Shown here: positions 43,479-59,641 of the stretch, piece by piece
How positions within the stretch are numbered: position 1 is the stretch's first letter
Layout of the letters: each line of letters opens with the position of its first letter
DNA from: Vallitalea okinawensis
GTDB lineage: Bacteria; Bacillota; Clostridia; Lachnospirales; PQDH01
Length of the DNA: 64,000 bases
NCBI RefSeq assembly: GCF_002964605.1
Contig: NZ_PQDH01000002.1
Coordinates: forward strand, 541,090 to 605,089
Reading direction: 5' to 3'
Notes under the pieces: generated by a model
What the model was told of the DNA's origin: nothing
The model's database searches: none
The model's input: only the letters and a program-made list of their open reading frames with translations
Translations under genes and position numbers: made by a program

Positions 43479-43518
43479 AATAGCCTCCTAAATAATTGAA
43501 TATCTTAATCTATGATTA

Positions 43519-44319
43519 TTATCTAACTAAATAACCACCATCAACATTGATCATGGCACCATTTACATAATCAGATGCTCTACTTGCTAAGAAAACACAA
43601 GTCCCCATTAAATCCTGCGTCTCCCCCCATCTGTTCGCTGGTATATGGTCGAGTACACGCTTGTTTGTTTCTGGATTTGATCTTGTTGCAGTTGTTAACT
43701 CTGTTGCGTAATACCCAGGAGCAATACCATTGACTTGTATGTTAAATTGAGCCAACTCATCACAGTATGCTCTCGTAAAACCCAATAAGCCTGTTTTTGA
43801 AGTTGCATAAGCTGGTGACCACTGACCTCCAAGATAAGAGAACATTGAACCAATATTTATGATTTTTCCTGAACGTTGTGGAATCATGTACTTAGCTGCT
43901 TCATGAGCTAATTCAAATGCAGCTGTTAAATTTACGGCCAACATTTTATCCCACTCTTTTCGAGTGAACATTGTTACATCTTCAATATTGATGCATAATC
44001 CAGCTGAATTCACAAGTATGTCAATAGAACCGAAAGTTTCGACACAGGCATCAATAATTCTCTTTGGTGCTCCTTCTTCTGTTATGTCAACTTCCATAAA
44101 ACCCATTTTTTGTCCAGTTTCTTCGATTAATTTTTGAGTAGTTCCGTCATCTGACATAAGACTGGGTATAAATACATTAGCTCCTGCTTTTGCAAGTGCT
44201 AGAGCAAAGGTTTGACCTAAACCAGTATTTCCTCCAGTAACAATGGCATTTTTACCTTTTAATGAAAAGAAATCAAGTGAAAAATCTTGAATATTAGTAC
44301 TCATAAAACTACCTCCCAA
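43519..44319 (-). CDS. SDR family oxidoreductase, KduD-like (2-dehydro-3-deoxy-D-gluconate 5-dehydrogenase family)
   Basis: LKGKNAIVTGGNTGLGQ, NSAG, and the YATSKTG catalytic YxxxK. Confidence 0.75.
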   Translation of the reverse strand: MGGSFMSTNIQDFSLDFFSLKGKNAIVTGGNTGLGQTFALALAKAGANVFIPSLMSDDGTTQKLIEETGQKMGFMEVDITEEGAPKRIIDACVETFGSIDILVNSAGLCINIEDVTMFTRKEWDKMLAVNLTAAFELAHEAAKYMIPQRSGKIINIGSMFSYLGGQWSPAYATSKTGLLGFTRAYCDELAQFNIQVNGIAPGYYATELTTATRSNPETNKRVLDHIPANRWGETQDLMGTCVFLASRASDYVNGAMINVDGGYLVR

Positions 44320-44516
44320 TTTAAATTTGAATATTTGAATAATTAGTAATTTTTTGTATCAAAAAAGAGAGCATAAAAAAAACCAAATTTCACAAATAAA
44401 ACACAACAAAAAGTGTCTTTTTGTTAAATTTGATTACTTTTCTCTGCTCTCTAGTAATCTAGGTATAAGTCTATCATAGCATATTGCTGTTGTCAAGCAC
44501 TAATCGACTGTTTTTT

Positions 44517-45455
44517 TTATAGGATTTGAATAACCTCATACATATCCGCTAAAATAGGATAGTGTGCTACACTAAACATTCTACAATCTTTATCAGTATT
44601 AACAGCAATAATTGTATCAGCACTTCTAACTCCTGAAAGAAATTGTATGGAGCCGGATACACCAAATGTTATTAATACTTTTGGACTGATATAACTACCT
44701 GAAAGACCAATTTGCTTATCCCCTGGCATGATCCCTCTTTCAACAAGCGCTCTAGTACTACATAAAACTCCACCAATACTCTCGGTAAATGCTTCAAAGG
44801 GTTCAATATCCTTTTTATTCTTTATGGCATTACCAACAACCACCACAAAATCATACTCTGAAATTTTTCGACTGCTTTTTTTGACAGTCGTATTCATTAT
44901 CTCATAAGAACTTCTGGGTAAAATAGAACCACTCATTAATATTGGTTTATATTCTATTTGCGGTCTATAGGGCTGAAAAGTATTAGGTCTAATAGTAGCC
45001 ATTTGAGGTCTCGCAAATTCAGTAATAATCTCTGCGATTATGTTACCACCAAAGGCAGGTCTTATCTGAATAATCCTTCCCTTCTCATCCATTTGAAGGT
45101 CCGTACAATCAGCTGTCAAACCTGTTTCCAATATCCCACTAGCCAATGCAGCTGTGGATTTACCGATAGGGGTCCCACCAATTAGTACAGCACTTGGACT
45201 TAATAACCTAACAGCATCAACAAAGCAATCTGCATAGATCTTGGAGTCAAAAGAATCTAAACCTTCGAAATAGACAATCTTATCAAAGGGTAGAAAATTC
45301 AACTCTTTCTCTAATTTTTTAATACTTTTTGTAATACATACACCATAAATCTTATCCATCTTAAGTTCTAAGGATTTTTGAACTATTTCATAGACCACTT
45401 GACTAACTTTTTCATTATCGTTTTCAATTAAAATCAATACACTATTATTCATCAT
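44517..45455 (-). CDS. etfA: electron transfer flavoprotein alpha subunit, second copy
   Basis: 312 aa. PKVLITFGVSGSIQFLSGVRSADTIIAVNTDKDCRMFSVAHY FAD-binding block. Confidence 0.85.
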   Translation of the reverse strand: MMNNSVLILIENDNEKVSQVVYEIVQKSLELKMDKIYGVCITKSIKKLEKELNFLPFDKIVYFEGLDSFDSKIYADCFVDAVRLLSPSAVLIGGTPIGKSTAALASGILETGLTADCTDLQMDEKGRIIQIRPAFGGNIIAEIITEFARPQMATIRPNTFQPYRPQIEYKPILMSGSILPRSSYEIMNTTVKKSSRKISEYDFVVVVGNAIKNKKDIEPFEAFTESIGGVLCSTRALVERGIMPGDKQIGLSGSYISPKVLITFGVSGSIQFLSGVRSADTIIAVNTDKDCRMFSVAHYPILADMYEVIQIL

Positions 45456-46224
45456 TGTTAATCCCCAATCCGTTGTATATTATATTTTTTACTTCTACAA
45501 GGGGAACACTTAAAACATTGTTTTTAGCCATCAGCTTCTTTGAATAGACTTTACTTACCTTTGTTGGTGAACCTTTAATACCTATAGATTTATGATCATA
45601 ATGGGAACTCAAACTGAAGTGATTGATTTCCTTCTTCTTAGCTTGTATCTTCAATTTCAATGATGCTAGCCTTGATATATATATATCCTTTTCCACAGCA
45701 ATCAAACAAGGCAACTGACATTTTATTGTCTGTATCTTTGTTCCTAAATCTTGTCTAACAATAATATAGGCTTCGTTAATCTCTACAATTTCACAGACAT
45801 TTCCAATATACGGTACATCTAACCTCACTGAAATGGATGCGCCAACTTGACCCGTATCACCATCGGTTGTTTGTTTTCCGCAGATAATCAAATCATAATC
45901 ATCAGCGATTTCAATGGATTTAGCGATAGTGTATGCTGTAGCAAGTACATCCGAGCCAGAAAATGCTTTATCACTAATAAGATAACCATCATCAGCGCCA
46001 AGAGCATAACACTCTTTGATAGTCTTTTCTGCTCGCTTAGGTCCCATGGAGAAAACATCAACATGGGAATCTGGTAATCTATCCTTAATTTGAAGTCCAG
46101 TTTCTACTGCTACAAGATCATAAGGGTTAGTCGTAACCCCTAGAGTCTTTCTGTCCAAGTTTCCAGTTTGAAAATCCATTCCCTTGTCTTGATTATTAGG
46201 CACCTGCTTAACACATATAGCCAT
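45445..46224 (-). CDS. etfB: electron transfer flavoprotein beta subunit, second copy
   Basis: Start placed at the internal ATG (MAICVKQVPNN...), which matches the canonical EtfB N-terminus. The ORF track extends to 46257. Confidence 0.75.
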   Translation of the reverse strand: MAICVKQVPNNQDKGMDFQTGNLDRKTLGVTTNPYDLVAVETGLQIKDRLPDSHVDVFSMGPKRAEKTIKECYALGADDGYLISDKAFSGSDVLATAYTIAKSIEIADDYDLIICGKQTTDGDTGQVGASISVRLDVPYIGNVCEIVEINEAYIIVRQDLGTKIQTIKCQLPCLIAVEKDIYISRLASLKLKIQAKKKEINHFSLSSHYDHKSIGIKGSPTKVSKVYSKKLMAKNNVLSVPLVEVKNIIYNGLGINNDE

Positions 46225-46653
46225 TTTCAAACCCAATTGCAAACACTCCTCTCTCAATTATACTTTCAAGCTGATTATATTCTTGAAAAGTTTTTATGTC
46301 AATCACTAATTCTTGTATCTCTGGAATTATTCTCATCCATTACATGGCCTTTAAGTTCTTTATAAGCATTCACTTTTGCTTCATATGTTCATCATTTAGA
46401 CAACAAGAAAAGTGACTACCATCACGTTCCAAGTATGTGCAGGAAAGTGCGATTTCTTATAACTTTAGTAATAGAGTACTCATATGACTTTTTTACAACC
46501 TACACTATCACATTTATCACCTATGACAGATTTTAATTAGTCTAAATATATGATAAATTAAGGCACAAGAAATGATAAGTGATATAGGAGCCAAATAAAG
46601 AAAACACATATTAGCAAAGAAATACTATACATAATGATTAAAGGAGAGATAGT

Positions 46654-47852: not shown

Positions 47853-48851
47853 TTGATTCACCCCTATATGATACAATATCTCTTGTGCAGAGGATTATTT
47901 ATAGGGGTGAATTTTTTGGAGAATCTACTCTTTACATACAATATCATTTTAACAATTTTTTTTACTATTGCTCTAACAGGCTATTATATTGTCTATATGA
48001 AAAGTAAAAGAAGAGGATTTTTATTTTTGTCATTACTTTTTTTCCTTATGATCATTGATAATTCCATTATATATATCTCAGAGTTTTCATCGAGTTTTGG
48101 TTCGTTGTATGAAACTAGCGACATTCTCTATATCGTTATTGACTTAATATATTTCGGGATAATAGTAACTATAAGGTTAATCATCTCACACTTATTTCAA
48201 GATCCATTTACGACTAGGGAAAAACAACTCTGTATAGTGGTACCGATTATCTTATTAATATTGAGTATAGTGGCTCCTTTTCAAGTAAGTGAACTTCTGA
48301 TTTATTTATCTTTTTATGCAACACTTTCTTATTTGGCATTGAGACTCTACAGACATATGAACTGTAACACTGAAGAATTTAGCGAAAGACGATCAAAGGC
48401 ATATAGCGTTTTTTTGTTTGTAAGTATTCTATTAAGCTTCCTAGGCATTGTTGAATCAGGCTTTTATTTTATGTCTTATTTAAGTGATCCATACCTAAGC
48501 TCTTCTCCATTGTCATTAGAGTATAGGAGTGTAGCCTTTGATATCATAAAACTATTGATTTTCGTTATTGGAATCAAAAATCTATATAACTGCTTCGAGA
48601 ATCTCTTTGATCAGAAAGATGTCAGTGATAAGAGTACAGATGAGAAACTGAATGAATTTTGTATAAAATATTCTTTGACCAGTAGGCAAAGAGAAATAAT
48701 TGAATTAATCATTGAAGGATATTCGAACAAAGAAATTAGCACCAGTCTACATATTACAGAAGGAACTGTAAAAACACACATATATAATATTTTTAAGAAA
48801 ACTGATATATCGAGTCGAAATCAAATAATGAAAAAAATAATGCAGGATTAA
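47853..48851 (+). CDS. membrane-anchored LuxR-family transcriptional regulator
   Basis: About 6 TM, then the C-terminal LuxR HTH LTSRQREIIELIIEGYSNKEISTSLHITEGTVKTHIYNIFKK. Confidence 0.65.
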   Translation: MIHPYMIQYLLCRGLFIGVNFLENLLFTYNIILTIFFTIALTGYYIVYMKSKRRGFLFLSLLFFLMIIDNSIIYISEFSSSFGSLYETSDILYIVIDLIYFGIIVTIRLIISHLFQDPFTTREKQLCIVVPIILLILSIVAPFQVSELLIYLSFYATLSYLALRLYRHMNCNTEEFSERRSKAYSVFLFVSILLSFLGIVESGFYFMSYLSDPYLSSSPLSLEYRSVAFDIIKLLIFVIGIKNLYNCFENLFDQKDVSDKSTDEKLNEFCIKYSLTSRQREIIELIIEGYSNKEISTSLHITEGTVKTHIYNIFKKTDISSRNQIMKKIMQD

Positions 48852-49180: not shown

Positions 49181-50263
49181 ATGACAAAGACTAGTTATTT
49201 TATAGATGTTATTACAAATGACTACGGTCAATATATAAAAAAACAGTCAAAAGAACGCATTCAAACATTTGATTTTATTAGAGGATTAGCAGTCTTCTTT
49301 ATGGTTATTGTTCATGTATTAATGACTTATGGAACGGATGATGTCAATAGTTCTTTTTTTGGTGGTGTTATAGACTTTTTTGGTGGACCGCCAGCAGCTC
49401 CTGTTTTTATGTTTTCAATGGGTGTATTTTTTATACTTTCCACTCGCTCAAGTAATCTCAAAGCTAGCGTCAAAAGAGGTATTACGCTACTTCTACTAGG
49501 CTATTTACTGAGTTTTTTAAGAACTGACTTACTTTTGTTGATAGAAAACTATCTAACTCAAAAACATTTGACTAGCGTTCAACTCTTTACTCTTTGGGAA
49601 GTAGATATCCTTATATTTGCAGGCTGGGCATATATCCTGATGAGTATCATTAGATTTTACTTTAAAAAACCAATTTGGTGGTTATTTATAGCCATAATGG
49701 TGTTGATTGCTAGTCCATTCTTATGGGGTATATCGTCAGATATTAAGATTGTAGATTGGATTTTTAATTTTCTTTGGGGTAATAGAGAAGAGGTCTACTT
49801 TCCTATATTTGGATGGCTGTTTTATCCATTAATTGGTATGACTTTGGGAGTATTAATGAAAGCTTCTTCTGATATAGAGACTCTATTTAAATCCCTCTTA
49901 AAAGTAGGTTTATCTCTTCTATTTGTTGGTAGTATCATAACTGCTACCAATTTTGATTTTCACATTGGCGATTATTATAGAAGCGGACCAGGTTCAATGA
50001 TTTGGATTATGGGATTTGTTTTCATTTGGTTATGGTTATGCCACAAAACGATTAACAAAATTAGAGACATTAGACTCTTTAATATCATATATTATTGGGG
50101 CAAAAATACTCCTTTAGTATATTTCATTCACTGGTTATTAATTTCATGGGGAACCATCCTATTGGGATATGAAGCATATGGCTATTTAGGTACTGCTCTG
50201 TTAATGGGATTGTTTTTAATAGCGACACACTTATCAACCAAGGTCATTAAAGCAATTACATAA
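49181..50263 (+). CDS. DUF1624 / heparan-alpha-glucosaminide N-acetyltransferase (HGSNAT)-like polytopic membrane protein
   Basis: 360 aa, about 10 TM. N-terminal RIQTFDFIRGLAVFFMVIVHV resembles the conserved start of DUF1624/HGSNAT-like acyltransferases. Confidence 0.5.
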   Translation: MTKTSYFIDVITNDYGQYIKKQSKERIQTFDFIRGLAVFFMVIVHVLMTYGTDDVNSSFFGGVIDFFGGPPAAPVFMFSMGVFFILSTRSSNLKASVKRGITLLLLGYLLSFLRTDLLLLIENYLTQKHLTSVQLFTLWEVDILIFAGWAYILMSIIRFYFKKPIWWLFIAIMVLIASPFLWGISSDIKIVDWIFNFLWGNREEVYFPIFGWLFYPLIGMTLGVLMKASSDIETLFKSLLKVGLSLLFVGSIITATNFDFHIGDYYRSGPGSMIWIMGFVFIWLWLCHKTINKIRDIRLFNIIYYWGKNTPLVYFIHWLLISWGTILLGYEAYGYLGTALLMGLFLIATHLSTKVIKAIT

Positions 50264-50317: not shown

Positions 50318-50355
50318 CCAACCTATTTCAGTCAAAGTCTTATGAAATAGGTTGG
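50318..50355. terminator. hairpin between the convergent DUF1624 and ACP-AOS genes
   Basis: 13-bp perfect stem CCAACCTATTTCA / TGAAATAGGTTGG. Weak T-tracts. Confidence 0.45.
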
Positions 50356-50379: not shown

Positions 50380-51954
50380 TTATACTACATTTTTTAGTCT
50401 AGTCAATTGATATGTATTTTCTTTAATTAAGTTAAATAAAATATCAATGGCTTGATCAATTTGCTCTGGTCTATGCATACTTGTTAAGCAAAAGCGAAGC
50501 CTTGCTTCCCCCATTGGCACAGCAGGATATATGGCAGGAGGGACAAACACTCCTTTTTGAAGCATTTGATTGGATAATTCACATGCTAACCCCTCATCAC
50601 CAATTATAATTGGAACAATGGCCGACTCCTTAGCTAAACCAGTATCAAAACCTTTATGATGAGCAACCTTTAGAAAGTACTTAATTGACTCATGTAGTTG
50701 TTTAACCAACGTATTATCCTTTCGTATATGTTTGATGGCTTCTAGGGAAGATGCAGCAAGTATAGGGCTAATTCCTGCTGCAAATACAAAGCCTGGAATA
50801 CAATACTTTAAGTAATCAATCAGACTATAACTTCCTGCTATGTATCCCCCACAAGTTCCTACTCCTTTAGACAATGTACCCATTTTAATATCTATATCAT
50901 TTGGCATTAAGCCAAAATATTCATCTACACCATTTCCCCTTTCACCAATAACACAGGAAGAGTGTGCTTCATCTACCATTAAGAAACATTGGTGTTTCTT
51001 TTTTATATAAACAAAATCTTTCACTGGTGCTATATCTCCATCCATTGAATAGACACCTTCAATGACAATCAATACCTTTTCGTAGTACTTTCTATTTTTT
51101 TCTAACAGTAAATCAAGTGTTTTAAAATCATTGTGCGGGAAAGATCTTGCTGTAGCATCTGATAATTTGCATCCTTGAATGATAGAGTTATGAGAAAGTG
51201 AATCATACATAATCAAGTCATTGTCATTACATAAATTCCCAATAACTGTTGTATTTGTTGCATTACCAGACACTAAAACAATTGCATCATCTGCATGCTT
51301 CCAATTTGCAATTTCCCGCTCCAATTCTATGTATAAACTCTTCTCACCTGCAAGAATTCTACTACCACTTGAGGATGTCCCATACTTCTCAGCTGCATCT
51401 TTAGCAGCCTTAACTGTTATCGGATGTCCAGACAAGCCAAGATAATTATATGAACCAAAATTAAGTACTTCTTTACCATTTATAATAGAAGTATCTCTTA
51501 CAACAGAATCATGAGGTATGAAATAAGGAAGTTCTACATCACCTAGAGCTTTCTTTTTCGCAGTTAATTCCATATATTCTCTAGAATTCTCAAATAAGGA
51601 TACAGGGATTATATCTTTTCCTTTATGATGCTCACTATGTAATTCCCTACCATATTTCTTGTAATAGATTTGCTTAGCGATATCTTCTACAGAATATTTA
51701 TTTGTATACTCAATATTATCTAACATTAAATCTAATTCACTCTCAAGTGCCATAACAATTTCTAAACTAGTGAGACTATCGCACAAAAGGTCATTACTAA
51801 AACTTGAACTGGCTGCAATCTCATCCATACCAATACCTAATTTATCCGAGCATATCTTTCTAACTTTCTGTAAGATCTCATCGTAATATAGATTGAATTC
51901 CTCTTTACAATCTTTTATTAAGTTTTGTCTGTTCGCTTTATTTACCATAACCAC
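50380..51954 (-). CDS. acyl-carrier-protein domain fused to an alpha-oxoamine synthase (serine palmitoyltransferase / AONS / KBL family, PLP-dependent)
   Basis: 524 aa. N-terminal about 80-aa ACP-like domain with phosphopantetheine-site motif LLCDSLTSLEIV. The class-II aminotransferase body has VLNFGSYNYLGLSGHP, SGNATNT, DEAHSSCVIGERG and PLP lysine TLSKGVGTCGGY. Confidence 0.8.
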   Translation of the reverse strand: MVMVNKANRQNLIKDCKEEFNLYYDEILQKVRKICSDKLGIGMDEIAASSSFSNDLLCDSLTSLEIVMALESELDLMLDNIEYTNKYSVEDIAKQIYYKKYGRELHSEHHKGKDIIPVSLFENSREYMELTAKKKALGDVELPYFIPHDSVVRDTSIINGKEVLNFGSYNYLGLSGHPITVKAAKDAAEKYGTSSSGSRILAGEKSLYIELEREIANWKHADDAIVLVSGNATNTTVIGNLCNDNDLIMYDSLSHNSIIQGCKLSDATARSFPHNDFKTLDLLLEKNRKYYEKVLIVIEGVYSMDGDIAPVKDFVYIKKKHQCFLMVDEAHSSCVIGERGNGVDEYFGLMPNDIDIKMGTLSKGVGTCGGYIAGSYSLIDYLKYCIPGFVFAAGISPILAASSLEAIKHIRKDNTLVKQLHESIKYFLKVAHHKGFDTGLAKESAIVPIIIGDEGLACELSNQMLQKGVFVPPAIYPAVPMGEARLRFCLTSMHRPEQIDQAIDILFNLIKENTYQLTRLKNVV

Positions 51955-52170
51955 TTAGCTCCTCCCTAAATTATTACGTATAATACTCCCTAATCTTACT
52001 GTTTGTAGCATTACATAAACAAGATTTATTTTCATTATTTACCATTTTACACTTATATTGTATGTTTTGCAACTTCTTTTTTTGCTATTAATTATGAACC
52101 ACTAACATCCTTCTTGCCCATCCTTCACATATAACCTAAAGTAATAACCTTATATTTTGTCACATAGACT

Positions 52171-52525
52171 ATTTATGTTTTCAATGGGTGTATTTTATAT
52201 ACTCTCTTCAAAGTAAAAGAGTCTAAAAGCTGGTTTGGGAGTATTAATGAAAGCTTCTTCTGATATGGACACTCTATTTAACTCCCTCTCAAAAGCAGGT
52301 TTATCTCTTCTATTCGTTGGTAGTATCATAACTGTTACCAGATTGGATTATGGGATTTGTTTTCATTTGGTTATGGTTAAGCCACATGACGATTAAAAAA
52401 GTAAGAGAGAATAGACTCTTTAATTTCATATATTACTAAGGCAAAGAAACGCCAATTTATTTTTCATACACTGACTTTAATTTCATGGGGAACCATCCTA
52501 TTGGGATCTGAAGTTTATGGATCCT
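52171..52525 (+). pseudogene. decayed partial copy of the 3' half of gene 49181..50263 (DUF1624-like), with internal deletions and a frameshift
   Basis: ATGTTTTCAATGGGTGTATTTT at 52171 matches 49407. GGAGTATTAATGAAAGCTTCTTCTGATAT... through ...TTAATTTCATGGGGAACCATCCTATTGGGAT matches 49846-50180 at about 85-90% identity, with a 50-nt deletion. No intact ORF. Confidence 0.6.
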
Positions 52526-52596
52526 CCCATTATCATGGTATCCAATGCTTCGTGGCACACATCTATTTGGTTACTCAATGGCTTGAACCATGCTCT

Positions 52597-52702: not shown

Positions 52703-53662
52703 TTAAAGAAAGATTGGGTTGGTCCATGCGGTTTTTCCATAGATATCTTTACATTCTATACGGACATATAGCTCACTACCATCTAATTGATGTGTTGCCT
52801 TTGTCAAAGTATTTCCTGCTGCTATCTCCATTTGGGATCTTTTTTTATACGTAATAAAGTTTATGCTTTGAACAGGTGAACACTCAATATATACTTTACC
52901 TTCTATAACGCCATAATCGTATATTTCAGGTCCACATGAAGAATAAAATCTTCCTTCTAAAAGAGCATCTGCGATTGCATCTTGTGTAAGTTCAGGAGCT
53001 TTAACACACACCCAACCCCCAAATGAATCACTTCTTGGGTCTGATTCATCAAACTTATTGTGGTTATCATCTGTAGCAATACCCCATATCTTTCTTCCCT
53101 CTCTCAGTAACATATCCCAAAAAACTGTTCCTCTACCATCATCATCTCCTACTCTTTCACAATTGTAATTATAAATTTCCATGGCAAAAAAACCATCTAA
53201 CTCCGAAATATCATCAAAATCTAATTGAGACCATATAGGATGATTTAGTATTACAAGATTCCCCTTATCTCTCATTTCATCAAAGAAAGCACTTTTAGCC
53301 TCATTGGAGTCTTCTATATCTAATTTTCTAATTCGAGTATTATGTTGCAAAGGGTCCTTTTTTGAATTTTTCTGAAAGGAATCTGACCCCTGTATGGCTT
53401 GATAATGATGTTTTTTCCCTTTATTAAGCATGCTAACACCAACTTCAACTGCAGGCATAACTATAAAATCTTCTGTATCAAATTCCTTAGTACAACTAAA
53501 TAATCCATGATCACTCAGTCCAAGAAAAGAATATCCTCTCTTCTTATACATTTCAACTATCTTAACCGGATCATGCCTACCATCTGATCTTGTTGAATGT
53601 GAATGTAAATTTCCCTTATACCAAGTACCTTCTACTTCAAATGGACATAAATTTGATAGCAT
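52703..53662 (-). CDS. PHP-domain metallohydrolase (CehA/McbA-like)
   Basis: N-terminal GNLHSHSTRSDGRHDP (PHP motif I) and GLSDHG (motif II). Paralogous to 56376..57356, with a shared C-terminus ...GKTAWTNP. Confidence 0.7.
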   Translation of the reverse strand: MLSNLCPFEVEGTWYKGNLHSHSTRSDGRHDPVKIVEMYKKRGYSFLGLSDHGLFSCTKEFDTEDFIVMPAVEVGVSMLNKGKKHHYQAIQGSDSFQKNSKKDPLQHNTRIRKLDIEDSNEAKSAFFDEMRDKGNLVILNHPIWSQLDFDDISELDGFFAMEIYNYNCERVGDDDGRGTVFWDMLLREGRKIWGIATDDNHNKFDESDPRSDSFGGWVCVKAPELTQDAIADALLEGRFYSSCGPEIYDYGVIEGKVYIECSPVQSINFITYKKRSQMEIAAGNTLTKATHQLDGSELYVRIECKDIYGKTAWTNPIFL

Positions 53663-53766
53663 ACGATCATTCCTCTCCCAGTGCGCAATGCACGAACTTT
53701 ATTAGATATTTATCCATTGTTTGAAGAAAAAGAACGATCCTTCGACCGTACTTTTCTTCTGGTTTA

Positions 53767-54894
53767 TTAAAATATATTATTTTCCCAACCAAGCAACTTT
53801 GCTATAGCTTCAATATAAAAGTAGTCTCCATAAATAAGCGAAACATTTACATTTTTATTTTTGACTCTATTTCCTACACCCTCACGAAGTAAGCCTTCAT
53901 ACTCTGGTTGGTCCCATGTTGCATAATGATTAGTAAGTGAATGAATGATCCTTTTTGCAGCTTTTTTATACATCCTTCCTTCTTGCTCTGGAAGATGATT
54001 GGCAATTTCAATTAAGCCTGATGCAGCACATGCTGCAGCAGATGTATCTCTAGGTTCTCCGTCAAAATTAGGAACTCTAAAATCCCAATATGGTACATAA
54101 TCATCAGGTAATGCAGCTAAAAAGAAATGTGCAACTTTTTGAGCTGCTCTTAGGTAACGTACTTCTCCTGTATATTTATATGTATTTGCCATACCATAAA
54201 TTGCCCAAGCTTGACCACGGCTCCAAGCAGAATGAGGATCATAGCCTTGTCCACCCAATGATTCAATAAATTCTCCACTCTCTGCATCAAAACTAGCAAT
54301 GTGGCATACTGAACCATCTTCTCTAATAAAGTTCTTTAATACCGTATCAGCATGAGCTTTTGCAATATGCTTAAAACGAGGGTCACCTATCTCCTCGGCT
54401 GCCCAAAATAGTAACGATATATTCATAGAAGAATCGATAATGGCCCAACCATTTTGATCATTCCATGCGCGCAAATAATTCCCCGCAATATTAAATCGTC
54501 CAGATAAGAAATTTGCAGCTTGGAGACCTCTACGTCTTGCATCTTGATCTCCTGTTATTTTATGTTTGATAACAGCTGTTGGTAGAAATTGAAAACCAAC
54601 ATCATGATGTAATCTGGACTCTTCAATAAAGCATTGCTCTATACGTACATCCCATTCCCAAGCAGCATTATGGTATTCTTTTTTCTTCGTCATATCATAC
54701 ATAATCCATAATATTCCTGGCCAAAAACCGGAAGTCCACCAGTCAACAGGGATATTATCATAAACACCCTCAGCTGAAACATGGGCAGATTTATTTTCTT
54801 TCACCATACGATCTATTTTTACTTGTAAAGCACCCCATAATTCCTGTAGATAACTATCAAATTTTTCAAAGTTATTAAATTCATTCATCATCAT
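53767..54894 (-). CDS. glycoside hydrolase family 88 (unsaturated glucuronyl hydrolase)-like
   Basis: 375 aa. DWWTSGFWPGILW and the overall alpha6/alpha6-barrel UGL pattern. GH105 cannot be excluded. Confidence 0.7.
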   Translation of the reverse strand: MMMNEFNNFEKFDSYLQELWGALQVKIDRMVKENKSAHVSAEGVYDNIPVDWWTSGFWPGILWIMYDMTKKKEYHNAAWEWDVRIEQCFIEESRLHHDVGFQFLPTAVIKHKITGDQDARRRGLQAANFLSGRFNIAGNYLRAWNDQNGWAIIDSSMNISLLFWAAEEIGDPRFKHIAKAHADTVLKNFIREDGSVCHIASFDAESGEFIESLGGQGYDPHSAWSRGQAWAIYGMANTYKYTGEVRYLRAAQKVAHFFLAALPDDYVPYWDFRVPNFDGEPRDTSAAACAASGLIEIANHLPEQEGRMYKKAAKRIIHSLTNHYATWDQPEYEGLLREGVGNRVKNKNVNVSLIYGDYFYIEAIAKLLGWENNIF

Positions 54895-54918
54895 TTTCTC
54901 CTCTTAATAAAATTTATT

Positions 54919-56337
54919 TTATTCAAAATTAACCCAATCACCATGGCTTGCTCCCCATTGCTTACATTTATCATGTAAAGCAATAACTAACTTCTCATAA
55001 TCCTTTTCTTCTGCTATATTAAACATTTCATGTGGATCCATCAATAAATCATATAATTCTTGCTCATTACTGCCATCATAAATGTATTTATAACGCGATG
55101 TAATAATAGCTCGCCGAACATAGCCTAGTGAAGGATTACCGGAATATTGACAAAAAACTTGTCTATCTTCCTCCTTATTTTCATAATCAATAAGATGTTT
55201 TACTGAAGCTCCATCCAAACACTCATCATGGTTAATTTCTAATAGATCAAGCAAAGTAGGCATGACATCCAAATGAGATACAACAGTATTAATCTGTTTA
55301 TGTTGGACATTAGGTATCTTTATAATTAATGGTACTTTAATGGCCTCCTCATACATCTCCATCTTTTGGTACATACTATGCTGTCCTAAATGATCACCAT
55401 GATCAGCTGTAAAAACGATAATAGTATTATTAAGTTCACCTATAGTCTCAAGTGTATCGATCAAGTGCCCTATCTGCTCATCCACAAAGTGAACTAACCC
55501 TAAATGAGCTGCCCAAGCTTTACGCCATTCATCCATGCTTACACTTTCTGCTAGTTGAGCTGCTATACCATCCCTTCTGCTAATAGGTTCTTTTGATGAG
55601 ATTTTACCTACATTATCAGGCAATGTGATTCGCTTAGGATCAAACTTGTATGCATGAGGTTCTGGAACGATAAGTGGTGGATGGGGGGCCCAAAAATAAG
55701 TGAAAAGTGCAAAAGGTTTCTTATGATTTTGCTTTAGAAAATCTATACTTTCTTCGCAGAAATAACAATCACGAAAATCCTTAACATCGTGTGGCCATAC
55801 TGATGTCCTGGAATTAGAATACTTCTTTCTATAGCGCTCTCCTGTATCCTTTTGTTCCCACACTTCTTTCTTATGATCAAGGCTTTGGCTTGAATTAATG
55901 CCTTTTGATTTCAGACCTGACATATGATCTTTTTGAGTAACCCATTTCTTAAAGGATACTCTATCCTTTAGTGATGGTTGGGTACGTATATGATCGACTC
56001 CCACATGAGCCATTTCATATCCTGCTTCATACAAATATTCATGTATTGGCTTATGATTACCAGCTTTTACGCCCTCCCAATCATTATAGACAATACTATT
56101 ATTAGTGGGGTACCTGCTTGTAGCCAATGCCGTCCTAGCTGGCACACAAAGAGGACAGGCATTATATGCTCGATTAAACACAACCCCTTTAGCTGCAAGC
56201 TTATTTAAGTTAGGTGTAACTTCCATTCCATCCTGAATCATACCTATACTATCAGCTCTCTGATGATCCGTCATAATAAACACAACATTAGGTTTTTTCA
56301 ATAATACTTCACTCCTCACAAAACTCGTTATTACCAA
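54919..56337 (-). CDS. formylglycine-dependent sulfatase
   Basis: 472 aa. VVFIMTDHQRADSIG, CxPxR motif in CPLCVPARTAL, FTADHGDHLGQHSMYQK. Confidence 0.85.
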   Translation of the reverse strand: MVITSFVRSEVLLKKPNVVFIMTDHQRADSIGMIQDGMEVTPNLNKLAAKGVVFNRAYNACPLCVPARTALATSRYPTNNSIVYNDWEGVKAGNHKPIHEYLYEAGYEMAHVGVDHIRTQPSLKDRVSFKKWVTQKDHMSGLKSKGINSSQSLDHKKEVWEQKDTGERYRKKYSNSRTSVWPHDVKDFRDCYFCEESIDFLKQNHKKPFALFTYFWAPHPPLIVPEPHAYKFDPKRITLPDNVGKISSKEPISRRDGIAAQLAESVSMDEWRKAWAAHLGLVHFVDEQIGHLIDTLETIGELNNTIIVFTADHGDHLGQHSMYQKMEMYEEAIKVPLIIKIPNVQHKQINTVVSHLDVMPTLLDLLEINHDECLDGASVKHLIDYENKEEDRQVFCQYSGNPSLGYVRRAIITSRYKYIYDGSNEQELYDLLMDPHEMFNIAEEKDYEKLVIALHDKCKQWGASHGDWVNFE

Positions 56338-56375
56338 TTAAGCTACATACAAAAAACTATATAATTTATATTCAT

Positions 56376-57356
56376 TTATTTTTGAAGGATAGGGACTAGA
56401 TTATTTGTCCAGGCTAATTTCCCTTCTGCATCTTCAATTTCAATAAATAAATATTGTGTTTTTCCAATAAACCCTTTACCTTCAACTAAAAAGTCTATCG
56501 GAGCTAAATCAATACTTGAGGAAGTTAGATTGTCGCCCCTTTCTATTTTTAAGAGATCTTTATTTGCATAAAAACGTATGTAACTCACAGATGAACACTC
56601 CATATATATTTCGCCATTAATAATCTCTAAATGTCTTATTTCTGGGCCCATTGAAGCGTAATACCTACCATTTTGAATACTAGAAAATATTTTATTCTTT
56701 GTTGAATCGTCTGCCTGAACTGAAATAAATCCACCTATATGTCTGTCGACTAGCTCAATTGATGGCTTTATATACTTTACTTTTTCCTTAGCATGAAAAT
56801 CATCAGCGGATATAGCTAACAAATTGCATCCTTTTGCAAGTGCATAAGTATAATGGCTCAAAGCTACTCCATTATTTGCCCTTATACAGGAACCATGGTT
56901 ATACACTTCTATACTGGTTAAAGCTGTGAGTTTAAGTATGTCGTCATAATTTATGTAGGATGTGCGTGGATGATTAAGTGTGATAATTGCTTCTTCTATA
57001 GGCTCCAGAAATTCATTAAGTTCTTCATATGAATGAACATGATATTTAAAACCAGCTTCCCCCATAAAGTATCTATACCTTGTCTTTTCATCTTTAAAAA
57101 TGACATTAATGTGTATAGGAAGTTTCCTTTCAGATAAATAAAAAGTTAATTCACAACCACACAGCACAATTAGTTCCATAATTAATGCGTCAAAATTACT
57201 GATAAACCTATTATGGTCTGAGATGGCTAAAAAATCGTACCCTCTGTCTTTATATATTTTAAGAACTTCTTTAGGAGTATATCTACCATCAGAGAACGTT
57301 GTGTGGGTATGTGTTGACCCTTTAAAGAAGGGTTGATTTTTATCCAATATAACCAA
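56376..57356 (-). CDS. PHP-domain metallohydrolase (CehA/McbA-like), paralog of 52703..53662
   Basis: GSTHTHTTFSDGRYTP and AISDHN motifs. Similar C-terminus ...GKLAWTNN. Confidence 0.7.
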   Translation of the reverse strand: MVILDKNQPFFKGSTHTHTTFSDGRYTPKEVLKIYKDRGYDFLAISDHNRFISNFDALIMELIVLCGCELTFYLSERKLPIHINVIFKDEKTRYRYFMGEAGFKYHVHSYEELNEFLEPIEEAIITLNHPRTSYINYDDILKLTALTSIEVYNHGSCIRANNGVALSHYTYALAKGCNLLAISADDFHAKEKVKYIKPSIELVDRHIGGFISVQADDSTKNKIFSSIQNGRYYASMGPEIRHLEIINGEIYMECSSVSYIRFYANKDLLKIERGDNLTSSSIDLAPIDFLVEGKGFIGKTQYLFIEIEDAEGKLAWTNNLVPILQK

Positions 57357-57422
57357 TCTATTCGCCCCTATAATCTAAACTTTGCATTGCACTCTACCGC
57401 TCAATGCTTAACACTATCCCCT

Positions 57423-57737
57423 TTATATATCTAAATTATTGTGAAAGGTTATTCTATTACTGATTGCAAATCGAGTCAGCCCTTGCTTATATTCTTCGAA
57501 ATATTTTTTATTTTTTAATTTTGGATATAGAATGGGATGACTTGATTGAGATGTATTAATAACTATTCTCTCTGATGATACAACATTGAAATATCTAAAT
57601 TCTCGACATGGTTCAAAAATAATTGCTTGAATGTCCTCATAAGTCAAATTTAATGTCTTAACTTCTTTCTTTCCTGCAACAATTAAAACCAGCTCTGTTT
57701 TATCAAGCAGAATACGTCTTCCCTTCATGCCTTCCAC
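57423..57737 (-). CDS. hypothetical protein
   Basis: 104-aa ORF in an operon-like arrangement. No recognisable motifs. Confidence 0.35.
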   Translation of the reverse strand: MEGMKGRRILLDKTELVLIVAGKKEVKTLNLTYEDIQAIIFEPCREFRYFNVVSSERIVINTSQSSHPILYPKLKNKKYFEEYKQGLTRFAISNRITFHNNLDI

Positions 57738-57833
57738 CTCATTTATATATACATAGATTCATAACCTCTATTCAATTTCTAAGTTTCATTATCTTCATTA
57801 CCTCATTCTAAGCTTTTTATTACGGTCTATAAT

Positions 57834-58520
57834 TTACTCTGCCTTGATCTTATGGATTTGAAGATTTTCATATTCAGCAATTAGGGGTGCCATCTGTCTA
57901 AATCCAATCTTCCCATCTTTAAGAATATTACCATATGATTCCCCATCATCCTTCCACGAGAATAATTTAAGATTATTTTCATCGTTAGCTATGTAAAATT
58001 CCACGATAGAACCATACTTAACGATTTTAATCCTATAAGGACCTTGGGCTAAGTTGACTGATGGAATTGGATCTGCGCCCTGTGCTACTAAGTTAAAACC
58101 ATGGCTCTTTCTAAGATTGCACACATTGTATGATCTTTGTGCTCTTCGTCTGAAATAGGATACATGGAGAGCATTTATATCACTGCTATGATACTGTGGG
58201 TACATGCCTTCTCTTTTGCTTAAAGAGGGACTAAAAATACTTTCACCATTTCTCCCTTTAGCGGCAAAAAACATTATGGCTAACCCAACATCACTTAAAG
58301 GATAAAAATCCCAAGAAATCTCAATGTTATCCGGAAAATCCTTATCGCACCAGAACACAATATTTGATCGTTGTAATTCTGAGGGATCAAGGACACTTTC
58401 AAGTCTCATCCTTTTCATAGGAAAAGTTACAGCACCGAAACCCTCCATCTTAAAATCTTTAACATCTTCTTGACAGGATAACTTGTTCGAATAAATTAAC
58501 TCCGTTCTACTATATCTCAT
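57834..58520 (-). CDS. DUF1961 (YesU-like, concanavalin-like fold) protein
   Basis: 228 aa. Size and motifs such as ...KIGFRQMA... resemble YesU-type proteins found in Bacillus pectin/glycan loci. Assigned from memory. Confidence 0.45.
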   Translation of the reverse strand: MRYSRTELIYSNKLSCQEDVKDFKMEGFGAVTFPMKRMRLESVLDPSELQRSNIVFWCDKDFPDNIEISWDFYPLSDVGLAIMFFAAKGRNGESIFSPSLSKREGMYPQYHSSDINALHVSYFRRRAQRSYNVCNLRKSHGFNLVAQGADPIPSVNLAQGPYRIKIVKYGSIVEFYIANDENNLKLFSWKDDGESYGNILKDGKIGFRQMAPLIAEYENLQIHKIKAE

Positions 58521-58570
58521 ATTTTTACACCTCAGATAATAGATTTGTCAACATCTTGTGAAACCATGAT

Positions 58571-59641
58571 TCATGATAACTCTGAAATATCAGCATATAC
58601 CACTTCAACTTTATGATCATTGACTGGATGAACAAAATAAACTCTTTTACCATCTCTTGAAAACACAGGATTTGCGTGTGCACGCCCCTCCCAAACAGGA
58701 GTAGTATAATCACTACTATCAAGTACTGCTATAGGCTTTATCTCATGACATCTATATAAGTTGACCTCTACTGGTGCTTCATGATAAAAGTTATCACTTA
58801 CATACCATTTTTTATCTGGAGATAGGTCAATATGATTACCCTTTCCTGCCAATAACCTAATTTGATTTCCAGTTAAATCGTATTGATAGATCTTTCTATC
58901 ACTCTTATCGTTTTTATTAACAGCAATAATCGTATTGTCATCAAACCATAATTGATGTAAAGGTTTGTTTGGAATAATAAAGTGTTCATTCTTGGATAAA
59001 TCTTTAGTAACAATAACCTTGCATTCCTCTAAAACTAATCTGATCATGACTTTATCCGCTGATGGATTTAATTGAACATGAGACACACTACTATCATCTA
59101 TTGGTGTATAGCCTTTCTGTCGGATAAAATCAAAAATTTCACCTATTGGTACAAGTTTCTCTATTTTCATAGTCTTCATATCCAGTTGGTAGATACCGGG
59201 TTCATCAATATTTGAATGGTCACTATTATGTTTAATATGTTGCTCCTTTACAGCAAAGGGTATTTTGCTTTTTTCAGCTTGATGGCCTAAAGAAGCTGCA
59301 ACAGGTCCATACATAACTTCTTTTGAATGAACATTCATTACTGAAAACTGACTTATGCCCTCATTGCTGATTTCCTGAAAAATTATGTGGTCATTATCAA
59401 CCCATGATGTATCTGCTCCATTGTGTTGATTGATTAATACATCTGTGACTTTCATATGATTTTCGAGATCAACGTCGCATATCCATATTTCTAAATTTAC
59501 TGGTTTATTATCTTTTGACAAATCTTTAATTTTTGCATAACATAATCGTTTTCCATCTGGACTCTCTGGACAAGTGCCATTATAGCCCATTACTGTAGAT
59601 TCTTGCCCCTTGTAAATAGGTACTAATGTGAGATTTTTCAT
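58571..59641 (-). CDS. TolB-like beta-propeller protein, possibly an oligouronide lyase (PL22-like)
   Basis: 356 aa, beta-strand-rich repeats, cytoplasmic. The lyase call rests only on the neighbouring GH88 and the beta-propeller character. Confidence 0.4.
   Translation of the reverse strand: MKNLTLVPIYKGQESTVMGYNGTCPESPDGKRLCYAKIKDLSKDNKPVNLEIWICDVDLENHMKVTDVLINQHNGADTSWVDNDHIIFQEISNEGISQFSVMNVHSKEVMYGPVAASLGHQAEKSKIPFAVKEQHIKHNSDHSNIDEPGIYQLDMKTMKIEKLVPIGEIFDFIRQKGYTPIDDSSVSHVQLNPSADKVMIRLVLEECKVIVTKDLSKNEHFIIPNKPLHQLWFDDNTIIAVNKNDKSDRKIYQYDLTGNQIRLLAGKGNHIDLSPDKKWYVSDNFYHEAPVEVNLYRCHEIKPIAVLDSSDYTTPVWEGRAHANPVFSRDGKRVYFVHPVNDHKVEVVYADISELS

What the first reader, a model, noticed from the sequence alone, without database searches (positions are those of the whole stretch)
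50380..51954. Single-polypeptide ACP-serine-palmitoyltransferase-like enzyme in a Firmicute
An N-terminal acyl-carrier-protein domain (DSL phosphopantetheinylation motif) is fused to a PLP-dependent alpha-oxoamine synthase with all catalytic landmarks. Such fusions condense an ACP-tethered acyl group with an amino acid (serine, cysteate, glycine or alanine), typically as the first step of sphingolipid-like, sulfonolipid-like or aminolipid/alkylamine signalling molecules. No other lipid-biosynthesis genes are adjacent, so it may act as a stand-alone module fed by FAS. This is unusual for low-GC Clostridia.
Basis: partly seen in the sequence, partly recalled or inferred. Interest (0 to 1): 0.6.

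Follow-up and report, generated by a model that had tools for sequence, protein, structure and literature searches.

The report
Carrier-protein-fused SPT-like amino-ketone synthase
The gene really encodes an acyl carrier protein fused to a PLP-dependent enzyme related to serine palmitoyltransferase. It is an orphan member of a large, uncharacterised clade, found mainly in Clostridia, that probably makes sphingoid-base-like lipids in bacteria not known to produce them.

Summary
Window 50380-51954(-) is an intact ORF of 522 aa from ATG 51948. It is 100% identical to a generically named Vallitalea okinawensis protein. It has an N-terminal ACP domain (DSL, Ser58) and a complete alpha-oxoamine synthase domain (H253, D326, H329, K361, R485).

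The gene is not BioF, KBL, ALAS or CqsA: every NCBIfam equivalog cut-off is missed, and NJ trees place it outside those groups.

It sits with 100% bootstrap support in a clade whose usual form is a ~1100-aa acyl-AMP-ligase-ACP-AOS protein (59 of 80 genome loci). An adjacent SDR is present at 25 of those 80 loci, and its best family match is 3-ketodihydrosphingosine reductase. The nearest characterised enzyme is SPT (77-81% NJ support).

"Unusual for Clostridia" is wrong, because Clostridia are this clade's main home. However, I found no paper characterising any member.

The Vallitalea copy lacks the ligase and reductase in cis, as do its two closest relatives. No lipid or biotin gene lies between 21.5 and 64 kb of the window.

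Most likely function: condensation of an acyl chain held on its own ACP with serine (or alanine) to give a 3-keto long-chain base. The loader, the amino acid and the product are all unverified.

The parts
50380..51948 (-). CDS of the ACP-AOS fusion protein. It is 522 aa from ATG 51948. An alternative GTG start at 51954 gives 524 aa.
   Evidence: ORF list. 100% identical to the 522-aa V. okinawensis protein P0001. Sequence read.
51676..51870 (-). Acyl carrier protein (PP-binding) domain.
   Evidence: Pfam PF00550 at residues 29-93 of the 524-aa ORF, above the gathering score. NCBIfam ACP models reach E 5e-15. The AlphaFold model has ACP-region helices at 4-37, 58-72 and 87-99.
51775..51777 (-). 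AGT codon of Ser58 (Ser60 in GTG numbering) in the DSL motif. This is the predicted 4'-phosphopantetheine attachment site.
   Evidence: GAT-AGT-CTC read. D57 and S58 are invariant in alignment A1. The match range to E. coli ACP chain 1l0i_A puts it opposite the phosphopantetheine serine. It lies at the N-terminus of helix II in the model.
51583..51648 (-). Flexible inter-domain linker.
   Evidence: pLDDT is below 50 for residues 101-122. This region is poorly conserved and of variable length in A1.
50440..51471 (-). PLP-dependent alpha-oxoamine synthase domain.
   Evidence: Pfam PF00155 at residues 162-505, E 9.5e-46. PDB sequence hits to ThAOS, SPT and KBL at E 1e-57 to 1e-69. Foldseek TM-score about 0.9 to ThAOS, SPT and KBL.
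50866..50868 (-). AAA codon of Lys361, the PLP Schiff-base lysine, within the TLSK motif.
   Evidence: Aligns with KBL K244 and SPT K244. Invariant in A1. Codon read.
51959..51966 (-). Shine-Dalgarno sequence GGGAGGAG.
   Evidence: Read directly from the sequence.
52044..52072 (-). Promoter-like site TTGCAA-17-TAAAAT, about 90 nt upstream of the start codon. It is a consensus match only.
   Evidence: The region as a whole has fewer such sites than shuffled sequence, so this is weak evidence.
50318..50355 (.). Perfect 13-bp inverted repeat (hairpin) between the convergent AOS gene and the acyltransferase-3 gene. It is probably a shared terminator.
   Evidence: Sequence. RNA fold of -20.4 kcal/mol, z = -3.06 against shuffles.

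Best explanation
The gene encodes a self-contained, carrier-protein-dependent alpha-oxoamine synthase.

Proposed mechanism:
1. The N-terminal ACP domain is converted to its holo form on Ser58.
2. The ACP receives a fatty acyl thioester. In most relatives a fused acyl-AMP ligase does this. Here no such ligase is present, so an enzyme encoded elsewhere in the genome must act in trans.
3. A disordered linker of about 20 residues (101-122 in the model) lets the ACP deliver the acyl chain to the PLP active site of the dimeric AOS domain.
4. The AOS domain holds an amino acid as an external aldimine on PLP after it displaces the Lys361 Schiff base. The amino acid is most likely L-serine, with L-alanine the next candidate.
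5. A decarboxylative Claisen condensation gives a long-chain 2-amino-3-ketone, that is, a 3-ketosphinganine-type base, and releases holo-ACP.
6. In relatives an adjacent KdsR-like SDR would reduce the ketone to the amino alcohol. That partner is not in this window.

Shown here: the domain architecture, the catalytic residues, clade membership, the conserved partners in relatives, and the exclusion of BioF, KBL, ALAS and CqsA.

Inferred: the acyl chain length, the loading enzyme, the amino acid and the fate of the product.
For: Domains and residues:
- Both domains and all catalytic residues are confirmed.

Clade placement:
- In NJ trees of the AOS domain (98 and 104 sequences, 100 bootstraps) the window protein lies in a Clostridial clade with 100% support.
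- That clade joins the B. mycoides ACP-AOS with 97-100% support.
- The whole group joins E. coli BL21 Spt plus a Bacteroides plasmid AOS with 77-81% support.
- KBL, BioF and ALAS lie outside.

Architecture in relatives:
- 59 of 80 GTDB loci have AMP-binding, PP-binding and AOS domains contiguous; by ORF size most of them are a single ~1100-aa protein.
- Pfam confirms the three domains on L064.
- L001 has the ligase as a separate, overlapping gene.

Conserved partners in relatives:
- A family-type SDR is adjacent in 25 of 80 loci.
- The best NCBIfam hit of that SDR is NF049977, 3-ketodihydrosphingosine reductase, with full-length coverage.
- 16 of 23 adjacent SDRs match that model at E <= 1e-55, the best at 1.7e-95.
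- An acyl-ACP thioesterase is adjacent in 5 loci.

Substrate loop:
- The loop SGSRIL matches S. multivorum SPT AGSRFL.
- The gating residue is Ser196, as in SPT and AONS. It is Val in KBL and ThAOS and Thr in ALAS (PMC11906848).

Precedents for ACP-tethered acyl chains feeding an SPT-type AOS:
- AasR/AcpR/Spt (PMC9386255; the cluster was fetched).
- The PKS SgaA with the AOS SgaB (PMC12134224).
Against: - The window has no ligase, no KdsR-like SDR, no phosphopantetheinyl transferase and no ceramide synthase. Its only nearby SDR is KduD-like.
- All three NCBIfam SPT equivalog cut-offs are missed: 312 against 640, 297 against 500, and 246 against 670 bits.
- Identity to Spt, Kbl, BioF and HemA is uniformly 31-32%.
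- S. multivorum SPT Asn52 makes a water-mediated contact to the serine hydroxyl (PMC10196870). In the window and all 14 aligned fusion homologues, and in the B. mycoides relative, this position is an invariant Tyr.
- The SPT-sister placement rests on NJ trees with few references and 77-81% support.
- No member of the clade has been characterised, and no sphingoid lipid is reported from Vallitalea or other Clostridia in the literature I could search.
Confidence: 0.6

Rival explanations
1. It is a specialised-metabolite or signal synthase. The ACP-AOS would build a non-membrane product, such as an aminoketone or alpha-hydroxyketone signal, or an alkaloid, pyrrole or glycolipid precursor. This would resemble PigH/RedN in prodiginine synthesis or CqsA/LqsA autoinducer synthases. 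The product might be sensed by the neighbouring membrane-bound LuxR-type regulator.
For: - The gene is an orphan, as are its closest relatives P0002 and P0006.
- A multi-TM LuxR/GerE-type regulator (47853-48851) and a membrane acyltransferase-3 gene (49181-50263) lie directly downstream.
- The 38%-identical B. mycoides ACP-AOS sits in a BGC-like operon. That operon also holds a glycosyltransferase, a SAM methyltransferase, two ABC transporter genes, a ketosynthase and a phosphopantetheinyl transferase.
Against: - The window protein is nested, with 100% bootstrap support, among proteins associated with the ligase and the KdsR-like SDR.
- The CqsA model scores only 159 bits against a cut-off of 428.
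- No homologue of the LuxR-type regulator or the AT3 gene was found near the AOS gene in the loci compared (L001-L085).
- There is no ketosynthase, methyltransferase, glycosyltransferase or exporter in the window.
Confidence: 0.2
2. It is a functionally stranded remnant. The gene would be an inactive or decaying copy, either a tri-domain gene that lost its ligase and reductase partners or a horizontally acquired fragment.
For: - There is no ligase or reductase in cis.
- The 750-bp upstream region holds a decayed pseudogene, which points to local rearrangement.
- No close orthologue was found in other Vallitalea; the next best hit is 56% identical.
Against: - The ORF is intact at 522 aa with a good RBS.
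- Every catalytic residue and the ACP serine are retained.
- There is no ligase remnant upstream.
- Orphan di-domain genes recur in at least three separate lineages, and one 90%-identity cluster holds 2677 metagenomic sequences. That pattern argues for a working architecture.
- The GC content equals that of the surrounding genome.
Confidence: 0.1
3. It is a biotin-pathway AONS (BioF) that uses pimeloyl held on its own ACP.
For: The highest-scoring NCBIfam model is BioF TIGR00858, at 350 bits. From background knowledge, E. coli BioF can use pimeloyl-ACP.
Against: - The BioF score is below the 426-bit cut-off.
- NJ trees place four BioF-group sequences outside the clade, beyond SPT and KBL.
- No bioA, bioB, bioD, bioW or bioC gene was found among the Pfam-scanned ORFs from 21.5 to 64 kb of the window, and none appeared among the gene clusters recurring in the loci compared.
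- The conserved partners in relatives are an acyl-AMP ligase and a KdsR-like SDR.
Confidence: 0.03

Closest known systems
AasR / AcpR / Spt system of Caulobacter crescentus and E. coli BL21(DE3) (PMC9386255; locus L093)
   Same: The logic is the same. A dedicated acyl-AMP ligase loads a dedicated ACP, and an SPT-type AOS prefers that acyl-ACP. A reductase is encoded alongside. The gene order ligase - reductase - ACP - spt mirrors the domain order ligase-ACP-AOS seen in relatives of the window protein.
   Different: That system has three separate proteins. Here the ACP and AOS are fused, and in most relatives the ligase is fused too. The window lacks both ligase and reductase. The AOS is only 31.6% identical to E. 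coli Spt. Neither the ACP domain against AcpR nor the relatives' ligase domain against AasR gave a blastp hit. The reductase in relatives is a classical SDR of the KdsR type, not the epimerase-type Epi.
Stand-alone bacterial serine palmitoyltransferases (S. multivorum 3a2b/8guh, S. paucimobilis 2jg2)
   Same: The fold is the same (TM-score about 0.9), as are all catalytic residues. The G-S-R-x-L substrate loop is shared, with Ser at the gating position (PMC11906848). This is the nearest characterised group in the trees.
   Different: Those enzymes have no carrier domain and use acyl-CoA. The window protein misses all SPT equivalog cut-offs. SPT Asn52 is replaced by an invariant Tyr. Use of serine is untested.
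PKS SgaA + AOS SgaB sphingolipid pathway of Pseudomonas fluorescens (PMC12134224)
   Same: The acyl chain is presented on a carrier protein of a dedicated synthase to an AOS with SPT activity. This produces sphingolipids in a lineage not known for them.
   Different: There the chain is built by an iterative type I PKS and the AOS is a separate protein. Here there is a bare ACP domain with no KS, AT or KR domains. The sequence relationship to SgaB was not tested.
PigH / RedN (prodiginine) and SxtA (saxitoxin) carrier-protein-AOS fusions (recalled from background knowledge, not tested here)
   Same: An ACP domain or domains is fused N-terminal to an AOS domain in a single polypeptide. The tethered acyl group is condensed with an amino acid.
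   Different: Those proteins sit inside large pigment or toxin gene clusters and carry extra domains: two ACPs in PigH, and methyltransferase plus GNAT domains in SxtA. No such cluster is present in the window. Their sequences were not compared.
A-CP-AOS architecture catalogued bioinformatically (Synechococcus B1XHP8; PMC3870968, 2013)
   Same: The three-domain AMP-binding / carrier protein / Aminotran_1_2 arrangement is the one that dominates the window protein's clade. It was modelled on S. multivorum SPT.
   Different: That work gave only a domain census and a homology model, with no function assigned. The window protein is the two-domain form.

Membership tests
Alpha-oxoamine synthase (PLP fold-type I, CoA/ACP-dependent acyltransferase subfamily) | Aminotran_1_2 domain, and the AOS fold in a structural model | tested here: met
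   PF00155 at E 9.5e-46. Foldseek TM-score (target-normalised) about 0.9 to ThAOS, SPT and KBL.
Alpha-oxoamine synthase (PLP fold-type I, CoA/ACP-dependent acyltransferase subfamily) | Schiff-base Lys, PLP-stacking His, Asp and His of the D-x-x-H motif, and carboxylate-binding Arg | tested here: met
   K361, H253, D326, H329 and R485 align with KBL K244, H136, D210, H213 and R368. All are invariant in A1.
Acyl carrier protein domain | PP-binding profile above threshold, with the Asp-Ser-Leu serine at the start of helix II | tested here: met
   PF00550 scores 26.1 bits against a cut-off of 20.8. The phmmer match range to E. coli ACP chain 1l0i_A places Ser58 opposite the phosphopantetheine serine. 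Helix 58-72 starts at Ser58 in the model. D57 and S58 are invariant.
Acyl carrier protein domain | Actual 4'-phosphopantetheinylation and acylation | not testable with these tools
   This needs mass spectrometry of the expressed protein. No phosphopantetheinyl transferase was seen among the scanned genes of the window.
Serine palmitoyltransferase | Score above the curated equivalog cut-off (NF047600, NF047599, NF047603) | tested here: not met
   312 against 640, 297 against 500, and 246 against 670 bits.
Serine palmitoyltransferase | Placement inside the SPT clade | tested here: inconclusive
   The window's clade is sister to E. coli Spt plus a Bacteroides AOS at 77-81% NJ bootstrap, not nested within them. 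Only two SPT-type references were available.
Serine palmitoyltransferase | SPT-type substrate loop (G-S-R-x-L, with Ser at the ThAOS V79 / SpSPT S102 position) | tested here: met
   Window SGSRIL against S. multivorum SPT AGSRFL. The role of this residue is described in PMC11906848.
Serine palmitoyltransferase | Asn of the N-x-Y-L-G motif (SmSPT Asn52), which contacts the serine hydroxyl through water | tested here: not met
   The position is Tyr167, invariant in the 15 aligned fusion proteins and also Tyr in the B. mycoides relative. The contact is described in PMC10196870.
Serine palmitoyltransferase | Use of L-serine to give 3-ketodihydrosphingosine | not testable with these tools
   An enzyme assay is required.
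Serine palmitoyltransferase | Co-located sphingolipid genes (KDS reductase, ceramide synthase) | tested here: not met
   None were found in the window. In relatives a KdsR-like SDR is adjacent at 25 of 80 loci, but no ceramide synthase family recurred.
8-amino-7-oxononanoate synthase (BioF) | TIGR00858 cut-off, neighbouring bio genes, and placement in the BioF clade | tested here: not met
   350 bits against a cut-off of 426. No bio genes were found in the scanned part of the window or among recurring neighbours in related loci. The BioF group is outside the clade in the tree.
Glycine C-acetyltransferase (KBL) | Equivalog cut-off, Val at the gating residue, and a tdh neighbour | tested here: not met
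   315 against 460 and 267 against 493 bits. The gating residue is Ser196, not Val. There is no tdh gene in the scanned part of the window.
5-aminolevulinate synthase | Equivalog cut-off, and Thr at the gating residue | tested here: not met
   267 against 339 bits. The gating residue is Ser, not Thr.
CqsA/LqsA autoinducer synthase | NF005526 cut-off | tested here: not met
   159 against 428 bits.
AMP-ligase-ACP-AOS clade (uncharacterised; defined here) | AOS domain inside the clade, ACP directly N-terminal, and the invariant motifs SYNY and GTS-SGSR | tested here: met
   100% bootstrap support. A family AOS HMM scores 633 bits on the window, against 239-326 for the BioF, KBL, ALAS, Spt and Bacteroides AOS references. 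Invariant columns are listed.
AMP-ligase-ACP-AOS clade (uncharacterised; defined here) | Fused or adjacent acyl-AMP ligase, and an adjacent KdsR-like SDR | tested here: not met
   Neither is in the window. The same is true of P0002, P0006 and L011.

The most novel reading that the evidence does not exclude
Clostridia (Oscillospiraceae, Christensenellales and relatives), together with some Treponema and Pirellulales, make sphingoid-type long-chain bases. They would do so with a compact module: a single-polypeptide acyl-AMP-ligase-ACP-SPT-like enzyme plus a KdsR-like reductase. This route has not been described. The phyla involved are ones that current reviews treat as lacking SPT. V. okinawensis carries a minimal two-domain version that is fed in trans.
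Probability: 0.35. Interest if true: 0.75.

Novelty: new variant of a known kind. Interest (0 to 1): 0.5.

Why it matters
Bacterial sphingolipid synthesis is usually said to be largely limited to Bacteroidota and some Proteobacteria (PMC10191378; abstract of 10.1101/632877). Recent work widens the picture with carrier-protein-fed routes (PMC9386255, PMC12134224).

This gene points to a large, unstudied sister clade of SPT. In that clade the carrier protein, and usually the fatty-acid-activating enzyme, are fused to the condensing enzyme, and a KdsR-like reductase is often next door. The clade is centred on anaerobic Clostridia. It includes very abundant metagenomic lineages: one 90%-identity cluster holds 2677 sequences.

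If the products are sphingoid bases or 1-deoxy analogues, that would add a new source of such bioactive lipids in gut, rumen and sediment communities. It would also supply a compact one- or two-gene module for bioengineering. The Vallitalea copy itself is a modest, orphan example.

Tried and rejected
- **Rfam scan of the whole window:** no hit, so no riboswitch or leader RNA precedes the gene.
- **Exact-sequence look-up of the protein's contig:** not on record.
- **Ligase search:** tblastn with three acyl-AMP-ligase queries found no ligase remnant in the 750-bp upstream region, and two ligase queries found none anywhere in the window.
- **SDR at 43519-44319:** it grouped with the family SDRs by single linkage and scored 217 bits on the family SDR HMM. 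NCBIfam shows it is KduD-like (325 bits), so I rejected it as a partner.
- **Acyltransferase-3 gene and membrane LuxR-type regulator as partners:** no homologue lay near the AOS gene in the loci compared (L001-L085), so no link is supported.
- **PHP-domain proteins upstream of the AOS gene:** they occur in L001, L007 and L059. The window's upstream gene is a different, CehA/McbA-type PHP protein set in a sulfatase/GH88 context, so I treat this as probable coincidence.
- **Predicting the amino acid from SPT Arg378:** abandoned, because E. coli Spt itself lacks that Arg.
- **My recollection that SpSPT Asn100 lies in the YNY motif:** this was wrong. By PMC10196870 and PMC11906848 it lies three residues before the GSR loop.
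- **Literature:** nine full-text searches found no paper characterising an ACP-AOS or ligase-ACP-AOS protein of this clade.
- **Cluster-member look-up for organism names:** nothing returned.
Full report
**1. The observation**

The ORF at 50380-51954 on the minus strand is real: 524 aa from a GTG. NCBI's 522-aa protein from Vallitalea okinawensis (Clostridia, Lachnospirales, Vallitaleaceae) is 100% identical and starts at ATG 51948. A GGGAGGAG Shine-Dalgarno sequence lies 10 nt upstream of that ATG. I use the 522-aa numbering below.

Pfam finds a PP-binding domain (26.1 bits, above the 20.8 cut-off) and an Aminotran_1_2 domain (E 9.5e-46). NCBIfam ACP models reach E 5e-15.

The Asp57-Ser58-Leu motif is invariant across 15 fusion homologues. 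The phmmer match range to E. coli ACP chain 1l0i_A (query 27-84 against chain 4-61) puts Ser58 opposite that protein's phosphopantetheine serine. In the AlphaFold model (mean pLDDT 73) Ser58 opens helix II, and a disordered linker (residues 101-122) follows the ACP domain.

The AOS landmarks H253, S301, D326, H329, T358, K361 and R485 align with the catalytic residues of KBL, SPT, BioF and ALAS references. The model superposes on ThAOS, SPT and KBL structures with a target-normalised TM-score of about 0.9.

**2. What it is not**

Every NCBIfam equivalog model falls below its curated cut-off:

| Model | Score (bits) | Cut-off (bits) |
|---|---|---|
| BioF | 350 | 426 |
| KBL | 315 | 460 |
| SPT (three models) | 312 / 297 / 246 | 640 / 500 / 670 |
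| ALAS | 267 | 339 |
| CqsA | 159 | 428 |

Identity to annotated Kbl, Spt, HemA and BioF is a uniform 31-32%.

I built NJ trees of the AOS domain with 100 bootstraps, first with 6 and then with 12 outside reference sequences.
- The protein falls inside a Clostridial clade with 100% support.
- That clade groups with a Planctomycete/Methylobacterium set and with a Bacillus mycoides ACP-AOS (97-100%).
- The whole assemblage is sister to E. coli BL21 Spt plus a Bacteroides plasmid AOS (77-81%).
- KBL, then BioF, then ALAS lie further out.

No bio gene was found among the Pfam-scanned ORFs of the window.

**3. The family it belongs to**

Of the best 80, most are Clostridia: Oscillospiraceae, Christensenellales, "Eubacteriales" and Tissierellia MAGs, plus Clostridium sp. 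19966. About two dozen are Pirellulales, and the rest include one Treponema and two Myxococcota-type MAGs.

HMMs built from the family gave these architectures across the 80 loci:
- 59 have AMP-binding, ACP and AOS contiguous. By ORF size most of them are a single ~1100-aa protein. Pfam confirms all three domains on L064.
- 3 have ACP-AOS with no ligase upstream.
- 11 have an AOS alone.
- The remaining 7 are cut by contig ends.

In L001 the ligase is a separate, overlapping gene. Di-domain, tri-domain and stand-alone forms are interleaved in the tree, so the architecture is evolutionarily labile.

The most frequent neighbour is a ~270-aa SDR, adjacent at 25 of the 80 loci.
- Its best NCBIfam match is NF049977, 3-ketodihydrosphingosine reductase KdsR. 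The match is full length at 231-237 bits, which is below the 400-bit cut-off.
- 16 of 23 adjacent SDRs match that model at E <= 1e-55, the best at 1.7e-95. No other family matches as many.

An acyl-ACP thioesterase lies divergently next to the gene in five loci.

Together these partners describe a pathway:
1. Fatty acid is released from FAS.
2. It is adenylated and loaded on a dedicated ACP.
3. It is condensed with an amino acid.
4. The ketone is reduced.

**4. The Vallitalea copy in its context**

The window holds none of those partners.
- tblastn with ligase queries finds nothing.
- The only SDR within 7 kb is KduD-like.

The flanking genes are as follows:
- Downstream: a convergent acyltransferase-3/HGSNAT-type membrane protein, a multi-TM LuxR-type regulator and an agmatine-deiminase-like protein.
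- Upstream: a CehA/McbA-type PHP hydrolase, a GH88 and sulfatases, which is a polysaccharide-utilisation context.

The 750 bp upstream of the gene contain a decayed copy of the acyltransferase-3 gene, with frameshifts, stop codons and an internal deletion. The AOS gene is therefore bracketed by an intact and a dead paralogue, a sign of local rearrangement. A 13-bp perfect hairpin separates the convergent genes.

The two closest relatives, at 54-56% identity, are likewise orphan di-domain genes. Other di-domain lineages keep the SDR but have no ligase nearby. One of them is a 90%-identity cluster of 2677 metagenomic sequences. The orphan di-domain form is thus recurrent and probably functional, but it must be loaded in trans.

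**5. Mechanism and substrate**

By architecture and by analogy, the holo-ACP domain carries a fatty acyl thioester to the PLP site. There an amino acid external aldimine undergoes decarboxylative Claisen condensation to a 2-amino-3-ketone. Two characterised systems support this reading:
- AasR/AcpR/Spt, in which SPT prefers acyl-AcpR (PMC9386255). I retrieved the E. coli BL21 cluster, with gene order ligase - reductase - ACP - spt.
- The PKS SgaA with the AOS SgaB (PMC12134224).

For the amino acid, the substrate loop reads SGSRIL, matching S. multivorum SPT AGSRFL. The residue equivalent to ThAOS Val79 is Ser196. That position is Val in KBLs, Thr in ALAS and Ser in SPT and AONS, and it is an experimentally shown determinant of amino-acid scope (PMC11906848). 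This argues against a glycine-restricted enzyme and for serine or alanine.

Against a canonical SPT pocket, the Asn that contacts the serine hydroxyl through water in S. multivorum SPT (Asn52; PMC10196870) is an invariant Tyr in the window and the fusion homologues examined. I therefore commit to serine as the most likely substrate and alanine as the second, with modest confidence.

**6. Comparison with what is known, and novelty**

Carrier-protein-fed AOS enzymes are known, as are ACP-AOS fusions such as PigH, RedN and SxtA (from background knowledge). The A-CP-AOS architecture was catalogued in 2013 (PMC3870968).

Nine full-text searches found no study of this clade. Reviews still describe bacterial sphingolipids as largely confined to Bacteroidota and some alpha-Proteobacteria (PMC10191378). 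I therefore class the finding as a new variant of a known kind: an SPT-sister, carrier-fused AOS.

It is fair only in the sense that nothing is known about these proteins.

**7. Verdict**

- The best explanation is an ACP-dependent synthase of a long-chain aminoketone, or 3-keto-sphingoid base (confidence 0.6).
- The rivals are a specialised-metabolite or signal synthase (0.2), a stranded relic (0.1) and BioF (0.03).
- Interest is 0.5. The single gene is an orphan of uncertain output, but it opens onto a large family with a testable and potentially significant function.

Noticed in passing
window 52172-52574 (+): A decayed pseudogene fragment of a paralogue of the acyltransferase-3 gene at 49181-50263. 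It is 76-93% identical in blocks and has frameshifts, stop codons and an internal deletion. The AOS gene therefore lies between an intact and a dead copy of that gene.
   Followed up: yes
window 47853-48851 (+) and 49181-50263 (+): A multi-TM protein with a C-terminal LuxR/GerE HTH domain is followed by an Acyl_transf_3/HGSNAT membrane acyltransferase, directly downstream of and convergent with the AOS gene. No homologues were found near the AOS gene in the loci compared (L001-L085).
   Followed up: partly
window 25933-33577 (-): A 1657-aa DUF3686/DUF7902/AAA ATPase is followed by a 676-aa SPFH/Band-7 protein and a 186-aa ORF with no Pfam hit. This is an unusual large ATPase module of unknown role.
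   Followed up: no
window 36356-39292 (-) and 42039-46257 (-): There are two separate sets of an FAD-linked oxidase (FAD_binding_4) with EtfA/EtfB pairs. They are interleaved with an FGGY kinase, an MFS transporter, a GlpP-type antiterminator and a KduD-like SDR. They may be Etf-dependent dehydrogenase complexes.
   Followed up: no
window 52703-63963 (-): A polysaccharide-utilisation stretch. It holds two CehA/McbA-type PHP metallohydrolase paralogues (52703-53662 and 56376-57356), a GH88, two sulfatases, a DUF1961 protein, a DUF3604 protein and a GH38 C-terminal fragment at the window edge.
   Followed up: partly
L086 7790-16620 (Bacillus mycoides plasmid p357): An operon encoding a glycosyltransferase, an ACP-AOS (494 aa, 38% identical to the window protein), a SAM methyltransferase, two ABC transporter genes, a beta-ketoacyl-ACP synthase and a phosphopantetheinyl transferase. 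It looks like a gene cluster for an exported, modified amino-lipid.
   Followed up: partly
L001 7472-8191, L007 5420-6157, L059 (gene directly upstream of the ligase-ACP-AOS gene): A ~245-aa YcdX-like PHP-domain protein sits directly upstream of the ligase or tri-domain gene in three loci. The window also has a PHP-type protein upstream, but of a different family. A possible phosphatase partner, or coincidence.
   Followed up: partly
L037, L039, L043, L044, L048 (gene divergent from the tri-domain gene): An acyl-ACP thioesterase-like protein (4HBT_2 / Acyl-ACP_TE) is encoded divergently next to the tri-domain gene in a Mageeibacillus/Saccharofermentanales sub-clade. This fits a hand-over of free fatty acid from FAS to the ligase domain.
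   Followed up: partly
L079 and L081 (Myxococcota-type MAGs): The AOS domain lies at the C-terminus of ~2270-aa ORFs that group with the Planctomycete sub-clade. These are presumably PKS-AOS megasynthases, reminiscent of the SgaA/SgaB logic. Their domain content was not examined.
   Followed up: no
L002/L003 (protein P0100): This di-domain ACP-AOS with an upstream KdsR-like SDR and a downstream alpha/beta-hydrolase represents a 90%-identity cluster of 2677 metagenomic sequences. It is therefore a very abundant but unnamed lineage.
   Followed up: partly
L091 4713-6245 (Methylobacterium bullatum): An unannotated AOS that is 42% identical to the window protein scores 525 bits on the family AOS HMM, far above the SPT, KBL and BioF references. 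The extended clade therefore reaches alpha-Proteobacteria. No ACP or ligase was detected nearby.
   Followed up: partly
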